Shown here piece by piece: positions 8,440 to 18,346 of a DNA stretch of 64,000 nt; within the stretch, counting starts at the first letter, position 1; the number at the start of each line of letters is the position of its first letter. Below the pieces are notes generated by a model that saw nothing but the letters and a program-made list of their open reading frames with translations, did no database searches and was not told the origin of the DNA. Origin of the DNA: Escherichia coli (GTDB lineage: Bacteria; Pseudomonadota; Gammaproteobacteria; Enterobacterales; Enterobacteriaceae); assembly GCF_001677475.2 (NCBI RefSeq), contig NZ_CP015229.1, one strand, 5' to 3'. The position numbers and the translations under genes were made by a program.

Positions 8440-8694
8440 TTATCTCCTTCGCCTGCGTGCCATATATTTGCGCACCGCGCGGCGTGGACAATCTGAAGCA
8501 GTTTCTTTCTGCTGCATCAATCTCGCAGCCATGCTCAAAAATGTCAGGCACAGCCGAAGCCCGGCATACAATAGCGGTTCCAGTGGCCACGTCTCATTGA
8601 GCACATATACCGCCATGAAAATCGAGTCAAAAACTATCGCCGCCAGCGATAACTTCATTGTCGAAAGTCGGCGGAGCTGCCGGAGTTTATTCAT
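8440..8694 (-). CDS. hypothetical small membrane protein with Arg-rich C-terminal tail, downstream of lyz
   Basis: Track ORF with hydrophobic stretches; ends just before the terminator; could be spurious. Confidence 0.3.
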   Translation of the reverse strand: MNKLRQLRRLSTMKLSLAAIVFDSIFMAVYVLNETWPLEPLLYAGLRLCLTFLSMAARLMQQKETASDCPRRAVRKYMARRRRR

Positions 8695-9244
8695 TGACCA
8701 GTCCCGTCAGGCAAAGCTGGCGTTCTTTTTCACGGCGAATCTTTAAACCTCGCAGGGGCACGCCGTTACTGTTCACGAAATCAGGGAGATGGTTACACAT
8801 ATTCACCCATTCCCCTTTCTGCGCCCACTTGTGGATGGACGTTTCAACTCGCATGCCTCGCGCTTTGCTGTAGTAGGTCCGTAAGCTATTGCATCCCATA
8901 TTGAATGCCGCGCTTGTCATTGCACTGAAGGCATTATCGGGCATGTCTTTGCCCCGGAAGTGCTGATTAATACAGCGTTCAGCGATCAGGATATTCTTTT
9001 CCCAATCAGCGGCGATTTGCTGGTCTGTTTTTCGCACACCCGGCGTTACCCCGTGTGTATTACCGATCCCGTCAGTCCATACCCCCGCCGGGCACATGTA
9101 TGGATCACGTCGGCAACCTTCAGCGTTTCCGATAAGCTCAAGCCCCGCCTGGTTGGTTCGCACATTGCCATTACCCATCACGATGGTAATCATCACCGCG
9201 ATAGCGCAAATTGCACCGCCTCCTGCGGCTGTTTTTCCCTTCAT
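8687..9244 (-). CDS. lyz: SAR endolysin (T4-lysozyme-like muramidase with N-terminal signal-anchor-release segment), 185 aa
   Basis: Track ORF trimmed to internal ATG behind a GAGG RBS; N-terminal Gly/Ala-rich hydrophobic SAR segment (AAGGGAICAIAVMITIVMG) followed by catalytic Glu/Asp/Thr motifs (GNAEGC, RRDPY, WTDGIGNT); length equals P1 Lyz. Confidence 0.85.
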   Translation of the reverse strand: MKGKTAAGGGAICAIAVMITIVMGNGNVRTNQAGLELIGNAEGCRRDPYMCPAGVWTDGIGNTHGVTPGVRKTDQQIAADWEKNILIAERCINQHFRGKDMPDNAFSAMTSAAFNMGCNSLRTYYSKARGMRVETSIHKWAQKGEWVNMCNHLPDFVNSNGVPLRGLKIRREKERQLCLTGLVNE

Positions 9245-9377
9245 AAAGACCTCATAAGCGAATTTTTTACGCTCCAGGACAAACACCCATTCACAGCCAA
9301 TACCGACTGACTCGATCCCTTTAGAAGGTACAGGATAATGCAAATCACTTGTTAGCTACGTTTCAAAGATATACATT

Positions 9378-9394
9378 ATTGCTCTAATTAATTT
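9378..9394 (+). promoter_or_regulatory. P1 C1-repressor operator-like site upstream of ssb
   Basis: ATTGCTCTAATTAATTT matches the recalled C1 operator consensus ATTGCTCTAATAAATTT at 16 of 17 positions. Confidence 0.5.
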
Positions 9395-9413
9395 ATTTTA
9401 TTAGGTAAGATAA

Positions 9414-10046
9414 GTGGCACAACGCGGTGTAAACAAAGTCATCCTGATTGGTACCCTGGGGCAAGACCCGGAGATCAGGTATATACCAAATGGCGGCGCG
9501 GTCGGAAGACTCAGCATCGCAACGAATGAATCATGGCGCGACAAGCAAACGGACCAACAGAAAGAGCAAACAGAATGGCATAAAGTCGTTTTGTTCGGAA
9601 AACTTGCTGAAATTGCGAGTGAGTATTTACGAAAAGGTTCTCAGGTCTACATCGAAGGGAAACTTAAAACCCGTAAGTGGACAGATGACGCCGGTGTAGA
9701 ACGTTACACGACGGAAATTATCGTCAGCCAGGGCGGCACCATGCAAATGATCGGCGCTCGCCGTGACGATTCACAGTCCTCAAATGGCTGGGGGCAATCA
9801 AACCAACCTCAAAACCACCAGCAATACAGTGGTGGCGGTAAACCTCAGAGCAACGCCAATAACGAACCTCCAATGGACTTTGACGACGATATTCAAAAAC
9901 GACTGAAAGAAAAGCGGTGGTCCAGACGCCGACAAAAGCACGAACTCGCTAAAAAACGCCAAAGCTGGCAATGGCACGCGCTTTTCACGAAAAGAACACC
10001 CCGAGGCATTGCTTTCGCTGGTGGGAAAACATTCCTCCCCACCTGA
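9414..10046 (+). CDS. ssb: single-stranded DNA-binding protein with non-canonical C-terminus (basic 50-aa extension after DFDDDI instead of terminal PF)
   Basis: Track ORF; OB-fold region closely resembles E. coli/P1 SSB (VNKVILIG...TEWH...MDFDDDI); reading continues [14 protein letters not shown]... to a stop at 10046. Confidence 0.85.
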
Positions 10047-10083
10047 AGGCGCAATACATCAAATTTTAAGCAGAGAAAAGACT

Positions 10084-10737
10084 ATGAATAAAATGGCAAC
10101 GAAAGAGCTTTTTAAGTTCCTTCCCAAATACAAAGCTCACAAAATCGTTAGTGCATCGAAAATCAAAGATATCGAGATTATCTCATTGATTGATAATACC
10201 CCTGCTTGTGGCTATATCACATTAATGGACCCCCAAGGCGTAACGGTTCGTGTTGATGCAGCGTTTTTGCAAAAACACCGACCAGATACTGGCGGCTATC
10301 TGCTCGGTTATGAGGACGGTTATCTGTCCTATTCACCAGAAAAAACATTTGAAGAAGGCTTTAGTCGGACTAACGACTTCTTCGAAAATGAGGTATCGCT
10401 TAGCATTGAAGGTCACAATGGGGTGACATTCATTACAGCCAGGGACGTAACTATTGCTGCCGGTGGCATCATTACCACACAAGAAGAAATCGACCTTGAA
10501 GCAGCCGACTTCTCTGACGCGCTAATGTGGTTGAAGGAAGGCAAGAAAGTTGCCCGACGCGAGTGGAAAGGCGAAAAGCAATTCTGCTGGTTAGTTCTCG
10601 CTGGAAGCGTCAATTTACACGGCATTCACGTTCCTTATGGTGACCATTTTGTATTGAAAGATGCACAAAATATGGACAGCGTTTGGTTGCCGTCTGTGGA
10701 TGATTTACTGGCATGTGACTGGTTTGTAGTGGAGTGA
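10084..10737 (+). CDS. two-domain protein: unknown N-terminal domain plus C-terminal DUF2829-like (Tad2-family-like) domain
   Basis: Track ORF 10009-10737 trimmed to the ATG in frame; C-terminal motif ALMWLKEGKKVARREWKG ... DWFVVE resembles DUF2829. Confidence 0.55.
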   Translation: MNKMATKELFKFLPKYKAHKIVSASKIKDIEIISLIDNTPACGYITLMDPQGVTVRVDAAFLQKHRPDTGGYLLGYEDGYLSYSPEKTFEEGFSRTNDFFENEVSLSIEGHNGVTFITARDVTIAAGGIITTQEEIDLEAADFSDALMWLKEGKKVARREWKGEKQFCWLVLAGSVNLHGIHVPYGDHFVLKDAQNMDSVWLPSVDDLLACDWFVVE

Positions 10738-10743
10738 TTTAAC

Positions 10744-11526
10744 GTGGAAAATACTAAAGCAATTCAATACCGCCTGCGTAATGGTCAGAGTGTCGAAGTG
10801 ACCATCAATAATGATGGTGTGCCTGGCGAAAAGGTTTCGATCTCTGATCTGGCTATCGAAAAAACCATCATGTGCCACCTTGGCTTTACTGAAGAAGTGA
10901 GCAAAAAGCATGGTGTAGCAATCTGGAGCGCAATGGATACTGGTATGCGCAGATTCATTACTGCTCGTACCCCAGGGATGACCATGATGGACCTCATGCA
11001 GATTGCGCCGCTGTTTGAATGTGAGCCTTTAGATGTATTCAGCAATCCAGCTATCTGCCAGCAGTTATATGGTGAGATGAAACTCGCGGTTACCCCCATT
11101 GTGCTGCATGAAGGATCGCTTGCTGGCGTGTGGAAAGTGGAGCGTATTTCAAGCTACATGCCTTTCCATGTCAACGGCGTAATCACTGGTGAAAATCAAC
11201 CTGTTTCCGTTATAAAGTCAGACCTCAAGCGCGCAATTCTTGAAGCAAGTTGTCGAGTTGTCGGCCTGGGCAAACAGTCTTATGTTTCCTTCCCGGCTGG
11301 CCCTGAAGGCCCGGCAGAAATTCTGATTATGGATGCCGATCTGCTATGGCAAATACAGTTTCTGATTGGCAAAAGCATCATCCGCGCTGAAGAACTCGAT
11401 CAGTACATTACCTGCACGATGACGGATGAAGTCAAAAGTGTGGCTATAGCCAATGCCCGGAACCTATGTCGTGCTGCATTAACAGAACTGCAAGAAAACA
11501 CCACGGAAGAGGTGGAAAGTGATTAA
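10744..11526 (+). CDS. hypothetical protein, 260 aa
   Basis: Track ORF; GTG start behind a GGAG RBS; tightly packed with neighbours. Confidence 0.5.
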   Translation: MENTKAIQYRLRNGQSVEVTINNDGVPGEKVSISDLAIEKTIMCHLGFTEEVSKKHGVAIWSAMDTGMRRFITARTPGMTMMDLMQIAPLFECEPLDVFSNPAICQQLYGEMKLAVTPIVLHEGSLAGVWKVERISSYMPFHVNGVITGENQPVSVIKSDLKRAILEASCRVVGLGKQSYVSFPAGPEGPAEILIMDADLLWQIQFLIGKSIIRAEELDQYITCTMTDEVKSVAIANARNLCRAALTELQENTTEEVESD

Positions 11527-12613
11527 TCGTATACAGAATGAATCTGCCTGGTTAGCACTGATAGAACGGTATAAAGACAATTGGGAACTGGCAGCAAAAG
11601 AGTTGCTTGATATTGAGTTAACACCTCATCAAGCAAAAATTATTAACGCGATAAAGAACACCGGAGCCAAAGTCACTGCCACCACACCACATGGTATTGG
11701 GGAAACCTCTATTGTGGCAGTGATTAGCATCCTGCAAACAATACTGTATTCGTGTTCCCGTACAGTGGTTGTTTCTCCTGCGATTAACGATAGTCGAAAA
11801 ACAATAATTGACTATATGTTCCGTTATTGGGAGCGAGTTACCCAAAAACACCCTTTTCTTGGCAATTATTTCAGAATACACCCTGACAAAGGGTTGGTGC
11901 ATATCAGTGAAACATGGGGATGCGTCTATATAACCTATTGTCTGAATAACGAAGAGTCTCTGGCTGGTTTTACTGGACCGCACGATCTTTTCATCGTTAT
12001 TAACTCGGCGGAAATCAGCGATCGCGCTCATGCAGTGATAACTGGCAATTTAACCAATTATGACTCGCGCCTGCTGTTGCTGTCGAAACCATCGGAACGC
12101 GAGAAAGGGTACTTTTATGATTCGCATCACCGGTTGGCCCATAGTAAAAACAATCCTGCTGGTTTTTTCACGGCGATAACTCTAAACACAGAGGATTCAC
12201 CTCTCGTTTCTGAAGCATATCTTGAATTCAAAGCCAAAGAGTTTGGTGGACGCAATAGCGATGAATATCGCCGATTGATCTTGGGGAAATTCCCCGGGAT
12301 TCGGGAGTTGATGGAAAAGTCATCTGTTCCCCGTAATATGCACTTCACAATGACTGACGGTAGTAAATGGGTAGTGCCTACGATCGTGATCGCCAAACAC
12401 CATGCGAAACATCACGCTCAAAAACACAACTCCAGCACATTAGACTGGCTGAAGGCCTATACAATACCGTTATTCTCGGCAAACCATAACGCTATAACTG
12501 AATGGGCTAAACAAATCCCCTGGCAGGATGTGGCTGAAGAGGCGTTTGTCGAAAAACCACCAAGAGATTTGCACGAGCACTGTTGGCTGACATCAGAAAA
12601 AAGCTTCTCGTGA
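11519..12613 (+). CDS. hypothetical protein with terminase-large-subunit-ATPase-like region and non-canonical P-loop (GIGETS)
   Basis: Track ORF; local pattern LTPHQ ... TTPHGIGETS ... DLFIVINSAE ... ITGN parallels the Q-motif/Walker A/Walker B/motif III spacing of large terminases, but the Walker A lysine is replaced by Glu. Confidence 0.45.
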   Translation: MINRIQNESAWLALIERYKDNWELAAKELLDIELTPHQAKIINAIKNTGAKVTATTPHGIGETSIVAVISILQTILYSCSRTVVVSPAINDSRKTIIDYMFRYWERVTQKHPFLGNYFRIHPDKGLVHISETWGCVYITYCLNNEESLAGFTGPHDLFIVINSAEISDRAHAVITGNLTNYDSRLLLLSKPSEREKGYFYDSHHRLAHSKNNPAGFFTAITLNTEDSPLVSEAYLEFKAKEFGGRNSDEYRRLILGKFPGIRELMEKSSVPRNMHFTMTDGSKWVVPTIVIAKHHAKHHAQKHNSSTLDWLKAYTIPLFSANHNAITEWAKQIPWQDVAEEAFVEKPPRDLHEHCWLTSEKSFS

Positions 12614-13724: not shown

Positions 13725-13789
13725 TATTAGACGTCAACTAGTTTTGCCGACTCGCGCCAACTATACTGGCCGCACCCTTCAGGGCGACA

Positions 13790-14545
13790 TCAAGTCGCGC
13801 TTGTTACTGCCTTCGCTGTCTTTTTCCTGTAGCTTTCCCCTTTCAGTTCGAACATATATCCGTGATGGATCAGCCTGTCTGCCGCAGCCACCGCCATAGT
13901 CTCATCCACGAAGATGCTGCCCCACATGCTGAACGGATGGTTACTGGTTATCACCAGGCTCCCACGTTCATAGCGATGCGCTATTAACTCGAACAGCACA
14001 CCCGTTTCGGCACTATCGCGTTTGACATAGCCAAGATCATCCACCACTATCACCCGGTAGCGATCCAGTTTCAGTAGCAGCTCATTCAGTTTCAACTGAG
14101 CTCTGGCTTTACGTAGTTCCTGCAACAGCTCTCCTGCGCTGTAGAACCGGGCCCGGTAGCCCTGACCTACTACGCCATCCACGATCGCTGCCGCCAGATG
14201 GCTTTTCCCCAACCCGCTGGCTCCGAACAGCAGAACGTTTTCTCCTGCATCAACCCAGTCTGTCGTTTCACAGAGTTGCCGGAACTGAGCTCCATTCAGT
14301 TCCGGCACCTGACTGAAGTCGTATTCGCTCAGCGTTTTGGCAACTGGCAACCGGGCCTCCTTTTTATAACGACGCAGTTTTTCACTCTCGCGCCACAGGA
14401 GTTCTTCATTGCATAGCGTCAGAAGATAGCGCGATGGTGTCCAGCCTTCTGCCAGCGCTCGTTTTTCCAGAGCGTGCCATTCAGCTCCAACTCGTGTCAG
14501 GCGTAGTTTACGCAGGCTATGTTCAAGGTGATGGATATTGCTCAC
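13790..14545 (-). CDS. istB: IS21-family helper ATPase IstB
   Basis: Walker A GASGLGKSH, Walker B VIVVDDLGY, ITSNHPFSMW motif typical of IstB/DnaC-like AAA+ proteins. Confidence 0.9.
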   Translation of the reverse strand: MSNIHHLEHSLRKLRLTRVGAEWHALEKRALAEGWTPSRYLLTLCNEELLWRESEKLRRYKKEARLPVAKTLSEYDFSQVPELNGAQFRQLCETTDWVDAGENVLLFGASGLGKSHLAAAIVDGVVGQGYRARFYSAGELLQELRKARAQLKLNELLLKLDRYRVIVVDDLGYVKRDSAETGVLFELIAHRYERGSLVITSNHPFSMWGSIFVDETMAVAAADRLIHHGYMFELKGESYRKKTAKAVTSAT

Positions 14546-16041
14546 TGCGAACCTCCCTTGCCACGCAGTAGTTGCTCATAACTGCTCAGGTTATGCTGTA
14601 TCACATTGACTACCGGCAACGCCTTTTCTTTTATACCCAGGAAGCGCATCAGCCGGTGCAGATCCACGTTTCCCGGGGTATTCAGCATCTGCTCCATACC
14701 TTTTGCCACGACTGAGATATCGTCGTATCCTGCAGCCAGTTTCAGGGCATGTACCATCAGCCTTCCTGCCATATCGGGCTCCAGATGATTACATAAGCGA
14801 CGCCACAGCCTCCGCCATTCATCGTCCGGCAGGATGTCATTTCTCAGCGTTGCATGGCAGAACGCACCGGGCTTTTTTGCCAGACTGTCGATCACATGTC
14901 GGAAGTCGATACGACGGGCCCGCGTCTTCCCTTTTTCTGGTCTGACGCGAGGGCAGCTCATGACCTCGCTGCTGCCAACGTAACAGCTCAGACGATCGTC
15001 CCATAACCTGACCCGTAACAGTTGACCTACAAGCCGGGAAGGTACGCTGTAGACGACGTGCTTCACATTGATGGTACTGCTGCGACTAACCCTCACAGTC
15101 AGCTCATCATAGTCAGCACTGCGACGAAGCGGCAGCGGTTTCAGATGAAGACGTTCTTCCTTGACCAGATCCTGATTGTTACGGTTGTGCCGCATAACCT
15201 GCTGAGTGATGAAGGCCTGATATTCTTCTATGGTGCTGAAGTCGTTACTGCCCCGCAGTATCAGCGCCTGACAGATACGCCTTTTCAGATGTCCGTGGGC
15301 ACTTTCAACCGAGCCATTTTCGTGGCCCCGACCGGCATTATTGTGTACGCCCTGCATTCCGTAGTGCTGACAGAGAGTAGCATAACGCTCAGTCAGCTCG
15401 CGGCGTCCATCTTCGCCCTGTTGTTTCCATGCTGCCCTCAGGCTGTCCGTTTTATGTTCTACCGGCACTCCGCCCAGTTGTCCGAGGGCTTCCTGCAGGC
15501 CTTCAGCCAGAGCAGAGAAGCTCTCACCACCCAGAACAACCCGCATCCAGCTCCAGTGGCTCCATTCCAGACGGAAGTGATACAACTTATGCGCCAACAA
15601 CTTACCGGCGATGGTGACAACTACACCTTTCAGTTCAGTAAAGTCCGACAGGCCTCGCAGGCCGGGCTGATGTTGCTGGCGGAACATGACCTCCTGCTCT
15701 GTACCATACTGTAGTTTCCATTCGCGAACCCGCCGTTGCATTGTTCTTCGAAGGCTGTTGGGGTACTGGCCGGGATATTTATCCTGTAGCATCTCCAGTA
15801 GAGTTGTTGGTGTCAGAGCCGGCCTCTCTTTCAACAGAGGAACAAGCATGCTGTCCCACACAGCTTCCAGAGGATCTTTGCGTGTGCGCCAGTGCCGAAC
15901 ACTGTTTTTTGCCCACTCTCCTTTTTCGATCCGACGACCAGAACGGACTGAGATACCAGCCTTCATGGCCGAGATATGCTGAGTTATACCTTTCTTACGC
16001 TGAGTCATATAGTAACTGACCTGAGAAGTATTGAGCGTCAC
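14542..16041 (-). CDS. istA: IS21-family transposase IstA (true start may be an internal ATG)
   Basis: N-terminal HTH pattern like IS21 IstA, overlaps istB start in the typical istA-istB arrangement. Confidence 0.8.
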   Translation of the reverse strand: MTLNTSQVSYYMTQRKKGITQHISAMKAGISVRSGRRIEKGEWAKNSVRHWRTRKDPLEAVWDSMLVPLLKERPALTPTTLLEMLQDKYPGQYPNSLRRTMQRRVREWKLQYGTEQEVMFRQQHQPGLRGLSDFTELKGVVVTIAGKLLAHKLYHFRLEWSHWSWMRVVLGGESFSALAEGLQEALGQLGGVPVEHKTDSLRAAWKQQGEDGRRELTERYATLCQHYGMQGVHNNAGRGHENGSVESAHGHLKRRICQALILRGSNDFSTIEEYQAFITQQVMRHNRNNQDLVKEERLHLKPLPLRRSADYDELTVRVSRSSTINVKHVVYSVPSRLVGQLLRVRLWDDRLSCYVGSSEVMSCPRVRPEKGKTRARRIDFRHVIDSLAKKPGAFCHATLRNDILPDDEWRRLWRRLCNHLEPDMAGRLMVHALKLAAGYDDISVVAKGMEQMLNTPGNVDLHRLMRFLGIKEKALPVVNVIQHNLSSYEQLLRGKGGSQ

Positions 16042-16129
16042 GCCATTTCCTGTTGGATCATGTAAATGACACTCAGGTTACAAAACCGGCCAGAATAATC
16101 GGCGCCAGGCGGACTGAGTTATTGTCGTC

Positions 16130-18346
16130 TCATACCTCACCAATAATGCCAGGGAGAATATTGCCGTTAGGATTAAACGCTCGCGAAAGGAAGAGTTTCA
16201 GCGCCCCCATGCCCTCCGATGCTTCAATATCACCAATAACCCGGTTAACAATGGCCGCACTCTTCGGATTAGCATCCGCCAACGCTCTGGCTACAATTTG
16301 CAGGGACGATACGACCTCACGCTGCATATCCGTCCTGATCTCATCAATAAACTCTGGCGTTATGCCGTGCTCTTTAAGAATATCCCTGCCTTCCGCCGTT
16401 ACCCCATCGATATCACCGACATGTTTATTAACCCGACTTTGCAATGCCTTAAATGCCTTCAGAATTCCACGGGAATCATCCGCTTTACTAACGGCCTTCC
16501 TGAATGCTGGCAAGAAGTCTGAGTTAACCTCATTTTGTTGATCGGCCCACTGAATGGAGGCTTCTTTCATCTCGTCCAGAGTCAGATCACCCAACGCGGT
16601 ATGGTCTGTGAATATGAGCGACAACCTCTGAACCATTTCTGCCAATGGTGATGCCGAATGCGCCGCGCTAAGGAATGCTTTCACCCTGGTTGGGCGAATG
16701 GAAAACCAGTCAATAGCTGGTGGCATATCTCCGTTTTGTATCGCCTGCGCTATCTCATCAAAGCCGTCGCGCCCAAGGGAGGATGCGTGATTTAACAATC
16801 CGCGAAGTAACGAATTGCTGATACCGAATAATCGGCACCATTTATTCACGTCGGCAACAGGCATTCGAACAAAATGCGCAAGCACTTGTACAAGCTGTTC
16901 ATCCTGGGGATCTGTACGGGAAAGCAGCCTGATCAGATGAATAATGTCTTTGATGCCGGATGCCCGATGTAATAGCAAGCTGGTATATGGAGCAACACCG
17001 TTGTAACTACCGCCGGAAACGGACTCGAAAAGACCGCCGGATATCCCTTGCATGCCTTCGTTTTCCAGTTCCTGAGACACCTGGCGAAGGATATCCTGTA
17101 ACGACACATCGCCGCCGCCAAACATATCCCCCAGCGCCTGGCCCTGGTGCTGTAACTCATCATTGATACGTTGAGCCATCAACTTAAAGGCGGTGGCCAT
17201 ACGCTTCGCGCTACGGTTATTCGCGACGATGAACAACGCGAGTGCTTTCACTTCCGGGGCCGTTTCGCTGAACATATCCCCCTGAGCAATAACATCGGTA
17301 ATATGCTGGCCTGACTCCTTCGATTGCCTTACCAGGTCTACCGCATCTTTCAATGCCGCCAGCGCCTTTTTATCGAGGCTATCCGCTGTCTCAATGCCAT
17401 CAACAATAGTTGTCACAGCCTGCTTGTGCGCTTCTCCTGATAAAGCCTGCATCTGGACAAAATCATTGGCTGCCGCATTAAGCGCCGTCAGAACATTACG
17501 CATATCCGGATCAGGTTCTTCTGCAACCATCCTTACCAGGCGCGCATCCTTATATGCCTTGGCAAAGATCGCGTTTTGTATACGGTCAACAAGTTGCCGC
17601 GTTGGTCGCCCATCTTCCGTTACAAGGCCAGCAGCCTGTGTGGCACCAACTTGCGTCATGAATCCGCGAATAAACGCGTCATTACTGCGGCTAAGCAGAT
17701 CTCCGCTTTCTGACGGATTAAACAGCGCCATCATCGCCGGTGTTATGCTGTCGGCATCAACAAAAGCCTTTTCACTGGCTGCCATTTCCTGAAGATCAGA
17801 AATATTTGAGTCCTTGGCAAACTGAACGCGGTCAACCTTAGTTAACCGGCGGCGCACCAATACAGGAGCCGTCATTGATTCAACCTTTTCAGGTCGTATG
17901 CCGAATTCGGTCGCATGTTCAATCAGGTACTCACGATACCGATCCGCATTGCCGTCCTGATAGGCTTTAATGATTCCCATGGTCCGTCCATTACCTGACT
18001 CAACGGCATTGTCCTCACCAATTATCGGCGCGCCATGGCTGGATAAACCGGAATCGGTAAGCTGAGCAGGCCGCAAATCTTTGGATATCTGGTTAACCTG
18101 AAGAAGGCTGGATGCGCGGGTCCGGTCGCGCGGCTGAAGTTCCTGGGGATAGTCAGGATTAATTTTCCCATCCAGAGTATTGGATACCAAAAGAGCTGAG
18201 GCATCGACGATATCAAACGCTGTTTTTACCTCGTCTCCCTTCGCTGTCACCACATACGAAACCCGCCCATAATCGGGCAGGTTCTTAAGCAGCTCGATCA
18301 GCGTTTCTATGCTGGTGGCAATTACCACCTGATCGCTTAAGCTCAT
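16130..18346 (-). pseudogene. ddrB: 5' fragment of IS-interrupted ddrB-like gene; 738-codon ORF ending with an IS-encoded Val-stop
   Basis: ORF runs from the dar operon into the IS terminus and stops 2 codons inside; position after darA-ddrA matches P1. Confidence 0.6.

What the first reader, a model, noticed from the sequence alone, without database searches (positions are those of the whole stretch)
9414..10046. ssb gene whose conserved C-terminal tip is replaced by a 50-aa basic extension
The protein follows the SSB OB-fold and acidic tail up to DFDDDI. Instead of the universally conserved terminal Pro-Phe that docks SSB partner proteins, it continues [15 protein letters not shown]... for 50 residues. 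The change begins exactly where the variable cargo region starts, so it looks like a recombination junction. Such an SSB could bind ssDNA but fail to recruit, or could compete with, host repair and replication factors.
Basis: partly seen in the sequence, partly recalled or inferred. Interest (0 to 1): 0.55.

Follow-up and report, generated by a model that had tools for sequence, protein, structure and literature searches.

The report
P1-type ssb gene with 15-bp tip deletion
A P1-like phage-plasmid lineage carries a real 15-base deletion that removes the last two codons and stop codon of its accessory ssb gene, so the DNA-binding protein loses its partner-docking tip and gains a 50-residue basic tail read from the spacer DNA; it is most likely a tolerated loss-of-function mutation.

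Summary
ORF 9414-10046 encodes a P1 Ssb that is 159/160 identical to P1 up to ...PPMDFDDDI. It then runs on for 50 basic residues instead of ending Pro-Phe-stop.

The cause is a clean 15-bp deletion (CGTTTTGAATGTGTA) after window base 9894. It joins ssb in frame to the roughly 190-bp leader that follows ssb in P1-type elements.

It is not an assembly artefact. The exact 210-aa protein is on at least 9 contigs assembled independently from different sequencing runs, and in two NCBI assemblies, all 99.98-100% identical to the window.

It is not a recombination junction. A sister contig (SRR18272945) is identical over 1,366 bp on both sides but keeps the 15 bp and a normal ...DDDIPF stop.

The allele is rare. 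No copy turned up in about 425 PLSDB plasmids, about 426 complete E. coli genome records, IMG/VR or the GTDB representative genomes.

Published work predicts such a protein binds ssDNA but cannot dock host partner proteins, and may be dominant-negative. The gene keeps P1's C1 operator, so it is probably silent in lysogens.

The lineage also carries G47D at a near-invariant glycine. My reading is a tolerated, degenerative lesion in a dispensable gene; an adaptive role is unproven. Interest is low to moderate.

The parts
9349..9411 (+). ssb promoters (P2ssb, P1ssb) and the C1 repressor operator Ossb/Op21 (operator about 9378-9394)
   Evidence: Window 9330-9425 is 96/96 identical to P1. The features are taken from the P1 record annotation, with coordinates transferred by the alignment.
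9414..9893 (+). ssb codons 1-160: OB fold, Gly/Gln/Pro-rich linker and the acidic stretch ...PPMDFDDDI
   Evidence: PF00436 is on record for this product and it matches PHROG 44 at E=9e-59. It is 159/160 identical to P1 Ssb. W41, W55, H56, F61 and W89 are invariant in the alignment.
9552..9554 (+). codon 47, GAC (Asp), where 84 of 84 other SSBs fetched have Gly; lineage-specific G47D
   Evidence: The sister allele L093 has GGC.
9894..9895 (+). deletion junction: 15 bp (CGTTTTGAATGTGTA = the last two bases of the Pro codon, Phe, TGA, then ATGTGTA) are missing between these two bases; the placement is unique and there is no microhomology
   Evidence: Alignments with P1, SJ46 and pMTY1586 and with the sister contig L093.
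9894..10046 (+). 50-codon read-through extension plus TGA stop (10044-10046); predicted long helix over residues 156-192
   Evidence: The AlphaFold2 model gives helix 156-192 with pLDDT about 75 and the rest disordered.
9895..10083 (+). the leader between ssb and the next gene, conserved in P1-type elements; frame 2 is an unannotated open frame of about 60 codons in relatives ([11 protein letters not shown]...), and the fusion reads that frame
   Evidence: There is no PHROG match, no Rfam match and no RNA-structure signal.
10036..10037 (+). 1-bp indel plus substitution relative to P1 (CCTGACCC -> CCT-CCCC); it is shared with the sister allele and places the stop of the fusion at 10044
10084..10737 (+). 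next gene (context): DUF2829/Tad2-like protein, 217 aa, a divergent allele
   Evidence: PF11195 is on record and it matches PHROG 872. It is 84% identical in protein to the pMTY1586 homologue, which is among the closest DNA matches to this segment.

Best explanation
This is the ssb gene of a P1-like phage-plasmid in which a recent, simple 15-bp deletion removed the last two codons (Pro-Phe), the TGA stop and the first 7 bases of the spacer. In P1-type elements the downstream leader is open in the frame that follows the TGA, so the deletion fuses ssb in frame to 50 codons of leader. The result is an SSB with an intact OB fold, linker and DFDDDI, no terminal Pro-Phe, and a strongly basic, probably helical tail.

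Shown: the deletion, its ancestral state, its presence in many independent assemblies, and its rarity.

Inferred from published SSB biochemistry: the protein should still tetramerise and bind ssDNA but cannot dock the SSB-interacting proteins. The basic tail may neutralise the acidic stretch or add non-specific DNA affinity.

Inferred from context: P1 ssb is an accessory gene behind a C1-repressed promoter, so the aberrant protein is made only after induction. The host SSB supplies the essential function. The lesion is therefore tolerated, neutral or mildly deleterious, rather than a designed feature. A second lineage-specific hit (G47D) fits relaxed constraint.
For: The 15-bp gap is seen against P1, SJ46 and pMTY1586. 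The sister contig L093 is identical over window 9554-10919 except for these 15 bp, and it encodes a 162-aa ...DDDIPF protein with G47. The exact 210-aa protein is on 9 contigs (SRR22006506, SRR11608754, ERR10434848, SRR3929499 and others) and in GCA_018683295.1 and GCA_025810455.1, all 99.98-100% identical to the window. One of these contigs still has an intact 995-aa ddrB, whereas the window has an IS21-family insertion there, so the ssb deletion predates that insertion and has been inherited. The allele is absent from about 425 PLSDB and about 426 complete-E. coli records that hold the region, from IMG/VR and from the GTDB representatives. The promoter and operator are 100% identical to P1. 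ssb is otherwise under purifying selection in the family: 37 synonymous against 27 non-synonymous polymorphisms, 38 of 62 variable sites at third codon positions, and all other 38 haplotypes end IPF-stop. Literature: the Phe side chain and alpha-carboxyl are the key contacts, and the deltaF and deltaC8 mutants abolish partner binding and are lethal as the sole SSB (PMC10164576). A C-terminal GFP fusion fails to bind ExoI, needs a wild-type copy and is dominant-negative from a plasmid (PMC7293020). P1 SSB complements ssb-1 (PMC3208561). A second independent tip-less allele of the same gene exists in Salmonella (P0009...GGGKPF, 17 contigs).
Against: No experiment shows that the fusion protein is made, is stable, binds ssDNA or fails to bind partners. 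Among the contigs read, about 10 carry this Tad2-like allele next to the 210-aa SSB and only one carries it next to the intact 162-aa SSB, so the deletion is not obviously costly and could even be favoured. Two independent tip-loss alleles, plus a sister clade with a conserved cap after IPF at the orthologous locus, could mean that masking the tip is useful to these elements rather than neutral. That P1 ssb is non-essential for the phage rests on my memory of Lehnherr et al. 1999, which I could not read here.
Confidence: 0.72

Rival explanations
1. Adaptive neomorph. A tip-less, basic-tailed SSB is selected because it coats ssDNA after induction without recruiting host repair or restart factors (or competes with host SSB), or because it escapes a host defence system that senses phage SSB.
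For: The lineage has been sampled repeatedly and has persisted through later events. A second independent tip loss exists in the same gene. A conserved 15-aa cap after IPF sits at the orthologous lyz-ssb-hxr-ddrB locus of Salmonella P1-like elements and in Cronobacter phage JK004. Phage SSBs are sensed by, or required to activate, Retron-Eco8, DARNA and AbpAB, and phages escape by SSB mutations.
Against: The extension is unselected read-through of a leader whose own reading frame is not well conserved. The allele is very rare: 0 of about 850 complete records. The sensing systems described respond to T7, T4 and T5-type SSBs, and at least Retron-Eco8 and DARNA do not respond to the E. coli SSB, of which P1 Ssb is a close relative. 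G47D at a near-invariant Gly looks like decay.
Confidence: 0.13
2. In-frame fusion of ssb to a genuine small gene. The 60-codon basic ORF that starts at the ATG abutting the ssb TGA in P1 would be a real gene, which would give a bifunctional protein.
For: The frame is open in 17 of 17 leader haplotypes, most with an ATG next to the ssb stop. Polymorphisms are 8 synonymous, 16 non-synonymous and 0 stops, whereas the other two frames acquire stops. Third-position changes are slightly in excess (11, against 8 and 4).
Against: The synonymous fraction (33%) is only slightly above the random expectation (22%) and far below that of ssb (58%). The ATG and the frame relative to ssb are not conserved, because the spacer is 15, 20 or 22 nt. 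The C-terminus is frameshifted in the sister allele. There is no PHROG family. In 5.8 billion proteins only two partial clusters call it.
Confidence: 0.1
3. One reading: the change is a recombination junction where variable cargo was joined to ssb.
For: The ssb stop is a module boundary in the family. Divergence from the closest complete plasmids jumps from 0.2% in ssb to 5% in the leader and 20% in the next gene.
Against: The sister contig L093 has the same divergent leader and the identical downstream gene with the 15 bp intact. The mosaic patch was therefore already in place, and the deletion is a later, separate event. Both sides of the junction are collinear with P1.
Confidence: 0.03
4. 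A sequencing or assembly artefact.
For: None beyond the general prior. Many database SSBs do carry frameshifted tails.
Against: A 15-bp loss outside any homopolymer or repeat is not a typical error. The identical allele is found in at least 9 independently assembled contigs from different runs and in 2 NCBI assemblies.
Confidence: 0.02

Closest known systems
Bacteriophage P1 Ssb (YP_006485.1; Lehnherr et al. 1999)
   Same: It sits at the same locus (lyz - ssb - variable region 2). The promoter, C1 operator, ribosome-binding site and GTG start are identical, and 159 of the first 160 residues are identical.
   Different: The window protein has G47D, has lost Pro-Phe-stop, and has gained 50 basic residues. 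It is 210 aa against 162 aa.
Laboratory SSB tip mutants and C-terminal fusions (E. coli SSB deltaF177, deltaC8, ssb-113, SSB-C-term-GFP)
   Same: The SSB-Ct is absent or not at the free C-terminus. These constructs lose partner binding while keeping ssDNA binding, and the GFP fusion is dominant-negative from a plasmid (PMC10164576, PMC7293020).
   Different: The window allele is natural, inherited and sits in an accessory phage-plasmid gene. The appended sequence is a highly basic predicted helix, not a folded tag. It has not been tested.
P0009, a 145-aa allele of P1-like Ssb in Salmonella (...YSGGGKPF)
   Same: An independent natural loss of the acidic tip in the same gene cluster, seen on 17 contigs.
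   Different: It is a 51-bp in-frame deletion that keeps a terminal Pro-Phe and adds nothing.
Phage SSBs with a conserved 15-aa add-on after IPF (for example P0040 in Salmonella P1-like elements, Cronobacter phage JK004, Vibrio phage V039C, Escherichia phage BUCT618)
   Same: They are bacterial-type phage SSBs in which IPF is not the C-terminus, and some occupy the orthologous lyz-ssb-hxr-ddrB locus.
   Different: They keep IPF and add a conserved motif, A[PT]xxL(P/Q/M)(F/Y/H)...(L/I). The window allele deletes PF and adds unrelated, unconserved sequence.
Naturally tip-less SSB paralogues such as SsbB of Bacillus subtilis and Streptococcus pneumoniae (from my own knowledge, not tested here)
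   Same: An OB-fold SSB that protects ssDNA without the canonical partner-docking tip.
   Different: Those are old, conserved paralogues with a dedicated role in competence. This is a recent mutation in one plasmid lineage.

Membership tests
Bacterial-type SSB (Pfam PF00436) | N-terminal OB-fold SSB domain | tested here: met
   PF00436 is on record for the exact product. It matches PHROG 44 at E=9e-59. The AlphaFold2 model shows a beta-barrel over residues 7-114.
Bacterial-type SSB (Pfam PF00436) | Conserved ssDNA-binding and tetramer residues (Trp41, Trp55, His56, Phe61, Trp89 in this numbering) | tested here: met
   All five are invariant columns in the 15-sequence alignment and are present in the window protein. 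One lineage-specific change, G47D, lies at a near-invariant Gly.
Bacterial-type SSB (Pfam PF00436) | Acidic SSB-Ct ending in ...DDDIPF with a free alpha-carboxyl on the terminal Phe | tested here: not met
   DFDDDI is present, but Pro-Phe is deleted and 50 residues follow.
Bacterial-type SSB (Pfam PF00436) | Tetramer formation, ssDNA binding and recruitment of SSB-interacting proteins | not testable with these tools
   Needs biochemistry: gel shift, ITC with ExoI, chi and PriA, and genetic complementation.
P1 ssb orthologue | Position between lyz and variable region 2, divergent from lyz, behind the C1-controlled operator Ossb (Op21) | tested here: met
   The flanks are collinear with P1 at 97.7% over 2.3 kb. 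The 96-bp regulatory region is 100% identical. Features come from the P1 record.
Phage SSBs with the conserved post-IPF add-on | IPF retained and followed by the 15-aa motif A[PT]xxL(P/Q/M)(F/Y/H)...(L/I) | tested here: not met
   The alignment shows that the window tail has no similarity to the motif and lacks PF.

The most novel reading that the evidence does not exclude
Uncoupling the phage-plasmid SSB from the host's SSB-interacting proteins may be recurrently favoured in the P1 family. It would be reached by at least three routes: this 15-bp deletion with a basic read-through tail, the 51-bp in-frame tip deletion in Salmonella elements, and the conserved 15-aa cap after IPF in a sister clade. 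On this reading the window allele is a functional tip-masked SSB, made on induction, that sequesters ssDNA away from host repair, restart or defence sensors.
Probability: 0.12. Interest if true: 0.55.

Novelty: new variant of a known kind. Interest (0 to 1): 0.22.

Why it matters
If the fusion protein is made, it is a natural counterpart of the laboratory SSB tip mutants. Its isogenic intact sister allele is available in public data. The pair could show what a phage-plasmid gains or loses when its SSB cannot recruit host partners, and whether a basic tail next to the acidic stretch changes ssDNA binding. Taken alone it is most likely one tolerated lesion in a dispensable gene. It also warns annotators that this 210-aa 'SSB' lacks the functional tip. 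The more general point, found in passing, is that a terminal IPF is not universal among phage SSBs.

Tried and rejected
- An exact 41-nt junction search in IMG/VR and in the GTDB representative genomes gave no hits. I did not run the metagenome scan, because independent occurrence was already shown by the exact-protein look-up.
- Megablast of a 100-nt junction probe against PLSDB and the complete E. coli genomes returned only two-piece matches among the top-ranked hits, including the only 100%-identical one, meaning the spacer is present.
- Promoter and terminator scans of 9250-10250 found nothing above shuffled expectation.
- Rfam gave no match on 9200-10300. Folding the leader as RNA gave z = -0.36, so there is no structure signal.
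- A PHROG search with the 60-aa leader ORF found no family.
- The leader ORF was tested for coding signal. It is open in all haplotypes, but the synonymous excess is weak, so I did not accept it as a gene.
- P1's annotated long isaA start (GTG in the leader) was considered as the frame being read. It is a different frame, and it is interrupted by TAG in many relatives.
- I looked for microhomology at the deletion ends and found none; the placement is unique.
- A word-indexed protein search for the post-IPF family returned only fragments.
- The representative search was dominated by frameshifted singletons, so it cannot give frequencies.
- The Lehnherr 1999, Bendtsen 2002 and Lobocka 2004 papers are not held.

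Full report
**Observation.** The window region is part of a P1-like phage-plasmid. The lysozyme gene lyz lies at 8687-9343 on the minus strand, and ssb diverges from it at 9414-10046 on the plus strand. Residues 1-160 are identical to P1 Ssb apart from G47D. After ...PPMDFDDDI the protein continues [50 protein letters not shown]. This tail has 50 residues, 16 Lys/Arg, a net charge of about +14 and a pI of 12. The OB-fold domain is recognised (PF00436 on record; PHROG 44 at E=9e-59). The invariant Trp, His and Phe residues are all present.

**What happened at the DNA level.** Aligned with P1, SJ46 and the plasmid pMTY1586, the window lacks 15 bp, CGTTTTGAATGTGTA, after base 9894. The deleted stretch holds the last two bases of the Pro codon, the Phe codon, the TGA stop and ATGTGTA. 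Everything after the gap stays collinear with P1 for another 193 bp, up to the ATG of the next gene. In P1-type elements the frame that follows the TGA is open for about 60 codons ([11 protein letters not shown]...AQYISF). A deletion of a multiple of three therefore fuses ssb to it in frame. A 1-bp indel near 10036, relative to P1, sets the stop at 10044. The basic extension is thus the family's own leader read through, not imported cargo.

**Is it real?** The exact 210-aa sequence is in the protein collection. It is encoded on 9 contigs assembled independently from different sequencing runs: SRR22006506, SRR11608754, ERR10434848, SRR3929499 and others. It is also in NCBI assemblies GCA_018683295.1 and GCA_025810455.1. 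These contigs are 99.98-100% identical to the window over 3.6-6.6 kb. A 15-bp loss outside any repeat, seen in this many independent assemblies, is not an artefact. One of these contigs still has an intact 995-aa ddrB, whereas the window and two others carry an IS21-family insertion in ddrB. The ssb deletion is therefore older than that insertion and has been inherited through later diversification.

**How common is it?** The allele is rare.
- No record in PLSDB (about 425 with this region) carries it, and none among the complete E. coli genomes (about 426). The top-ranked matches, including the only 100%-identical one, are in two pieces, meaning the spacer is present.
- It is absent from IMG/VR and from the GTDB representative genomes.

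**Is it a recombination junction?** The ssb stop codon is a module boundary in this family.
- Seventeen of the P1-like IMG/VR loci fetched lose homology to the window exactly at 9894.
- The few bases after the stop are hypervariable: spacers of 15, 20 or 22 nt, with all three stop codons in use.
- The literature lists isaA-IS1-isaB, next to ssb, as variable region 2 (PMC9603915).
- Against the closest complete plasmid, mismatches jump from 1 in 481 in ssb to 10 in 193 in the leader and 20% in the first 300 bp of the next gene. They then drop back to under 1%.

This made a junction plausible, but a direct test rejects it. I looked up the exact downstream protein (217 aa, DUF2829/Tad2-like) and found a sister contig, L093 from SRR18272945. 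L093 is identical to the window from 9554 to 10919, a span of 1,366 bp. That span includes every lineage-specific leader substitution and the 1-bp indel. The only difference is that L093 retains the 15 bp. Its SSB is 162 aa, ends ...DDDIPF and has Gly47. The divergent patch was therefore already present, and the 15-bp deletion is a later, simple event in that background. There is no microhomology at the ends, and the placement of the gap is unique.

**Likely consequence.** This part is inferred, not tested here.
- SSB-interacting proteins bind the SSB tip through a hydrophobic pocket for the terminal Phe side chain and a basic lip that holds its alpha-carboxyl group. Deleting the Phe or the last eight residues abolishes binding and is lethal when it is the only SSB (PMC10164576).
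- The window protein lacks Pro-Phe altogether and buries DFDDDI in front of a strongly basic segment. AlphaFold2 models residues 156-192 as one long helix, with pLDDT about 75 and the rest disordered.

The protein should therefore bind ssDNA but not recruit partners. The tail may neutralise the acidic stretch or add non-specific nucleic-acid affinity.

**Why it would be tolerated.**
- The 96 bp upstream, carrying P2ssb, P1ssb and the C1 operator Ossb/Op21, are 100% identical to P1. The gene is expected to be repressed in the lysogen.
- P1 SSB can replace E. coli SSB (PMC3208561). From my memory of Lehnherr et al. 1999, it is dispensable for the phage.
- The host SSB supplies the essential function, so the cost of the lesion should be small.

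**Decay or adaptation?** In the P1 family ssb is under purifying selection. There are 37 synonymous against 27 non-synonymous polymorphisms, and 38 of 62 variable sites fall at third codon positions. All other 38 haplotypes end IPF-stop. Relative to its sister, the deletion lineage has three differences in ssb: the tip deletion, G47D at a Gly that is invariant in the 84 other SSBs examined, and one synonymous change. Two hits on invariant features look like relaxed constraint. The same element has also taken an IS21-family insertion in ddrB and a Mu-like prophage insertion. I therefore favour a tolerated degenerative lesion (confidence about 0.7).

Several observations keep an adaptive reading alive at about 0.1-0.15:
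- Among the contigs read, about 10 carry this Tad2-like allele next to the 210-aa SSB and only one carries it next to the intact 162-aa SSB.
- A second, independent tip-less allele of the same gene exists in Salmonella (...GGGKPF, 17 contigs).
- A sister clade carries a conserved 15-aa cap after IPF at the orthologous locus.
- Phage SSBs are known triggers of defence systems, with escape by SSB mutation.

**The leader ORF.** The frame read by the extension is open in all 17 leader haplotypes, usually with an ATG abutting the ssb stop. Its polymorphisms are 8 synonymous, 16 non-synonymous and no stops, whereas the other two frames acquire stops. Several results argue against it being a gene.
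- The synonymous excess is small.
- The start codon and its frame relative to ssb are not conserved.
- The C-terminus is frameshifted in the sister allele.
- There is no PHROG family, and gene callers almost never report it.

I treat it as unproven. The same analysis shows that P1's annotated long isaA start lies in a frame that many relatives interrupt with TAG.

**Comparison with known things.** By domain the protein is a bacterial-type SSB, and by locus it is the P1 ssb orthologue. It fails the family's defining C-terminal feature. It works like the laboratory tip mutants and C-terminal fusions, and it resembles naturally tip-less paralogues such as SsbB. It is not a member of the post-IPF add-on family. 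I class it as a new variant of a known kind, of low to moderate interest. It is a well-documented natural allele with an isogenic control in public data, but most probably a tolerated loss-of-function mutation.

Noticed in passing
L055, L056, L057, L058, L062, L064, L085 (SSB at 1501 onward); L096:4001-4537; L097, L098, L099: A widespread family of phage and phage-plasmid bacterial-type SSBs keeps ...DFDDDIPF but continues with a conserved 15-aa add-on (APVTLPFPRHAIHAL, APIGLPYPRHTVYCL, APVGLQYGRNLLHVI and similar). It occurs in Salmonella, Enterobacter, Hafnia, Buttiauxella, Cronobacter, E. coli and Vibrio phages. One version (P0040) is listed in 804 blocks of the collection and sits at the orthologous lyz-ssb-hxr-ddrB locus of Salmonella P1-like elements. 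The DNA downstream differs between members, so the motif is conserved as protein. A motif search of the literature found nothing. A terminal IPF is therefore not universal.
   Followed up: partly
protein P0009 (same 90% cluster as the window SSB): A second independent tip-less allele of P1-like Ssb exists: 145 aa ending ...YSGGGKPF, from a 51-bp in-frame deletion of [17 protein letters not shown]. It is found on 17 contigs of several Salmonella isolates.
   Followed up: partly
window 13738-16130: An IS21-family element (IstA 14542-16041, IstB 13790-14545, both on the minus strand) is inserted in ddrB. It splits ddrB into aa 1-737 (18346-16136) and aa 737-995 (13722-12946). A contig of the same lineage (L007) still has an intact ddrB.
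   Followed up: partly
window about 37155-64000: P1-like homology stops inside a P1 gene at about 37153. What follows is a Mu-like transposable prophage. Its end starts with TG and carries repeated ATTCAAGATAA motifs. It encodes a repressor-like ORF, a 721-aa transposase and a 317-aa B-like protein; DNA matches in PLSDB are annotated Mor, terminase, DUF935 and gpT head protein. It is only 72-85% identical to anything in PLSDB. The right end lies outside the window.
   Followed up: partly
window 10084-10737: The gene after ssb is a DUF2829/Tad2-like protein (PF11195, the family of the Thoeris anti-defence protein Tad2). Its first 300 bp are only about 79% identical to the closest complete plasmids, while the flanks are more than 99% identical, so it is a small mosaic patch. 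The nearest full matches in PLSDB and complete E. coli genomes are 90.2% identical.
   Followed up: partly
window 11519-12613: A 364-aa ORF in the variable region has no NCBIfam match but shows 36% identity to PacB (terminase large subunit) residues 11-274 of a P1-like plasmid. It is present in the deletion lineage and absent from P1, pMTY1586 and the sister contig L093.
   Followed up: no
window 9895-10083 and L001:2104-2300: The spacer right after the ssb stop is hypervariable among P1-like elements: 15, 20 or 22 nt, with TGA, TAG or TAA. A 60-codon basic ORF in the leader stays open in all haplotypes. P1's annotated long isaA start (GTG at L001:2133) lies in a frame that many relatives interrupt with TAG, so that start is probably mis-annotated.
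   Followed up: partly
proteins P0086-P0235: Many 50%-identity cluster representatives near this SSB have frameshifted C-terminal tails (for example ...[15 protein letters not shown], the +1 frame of [13 protein letters not shown]). Aberrant SSB tails are over-represented among representatives, so such libraries cannot be used to estimate how often the tip is lost.
   Followed up: no
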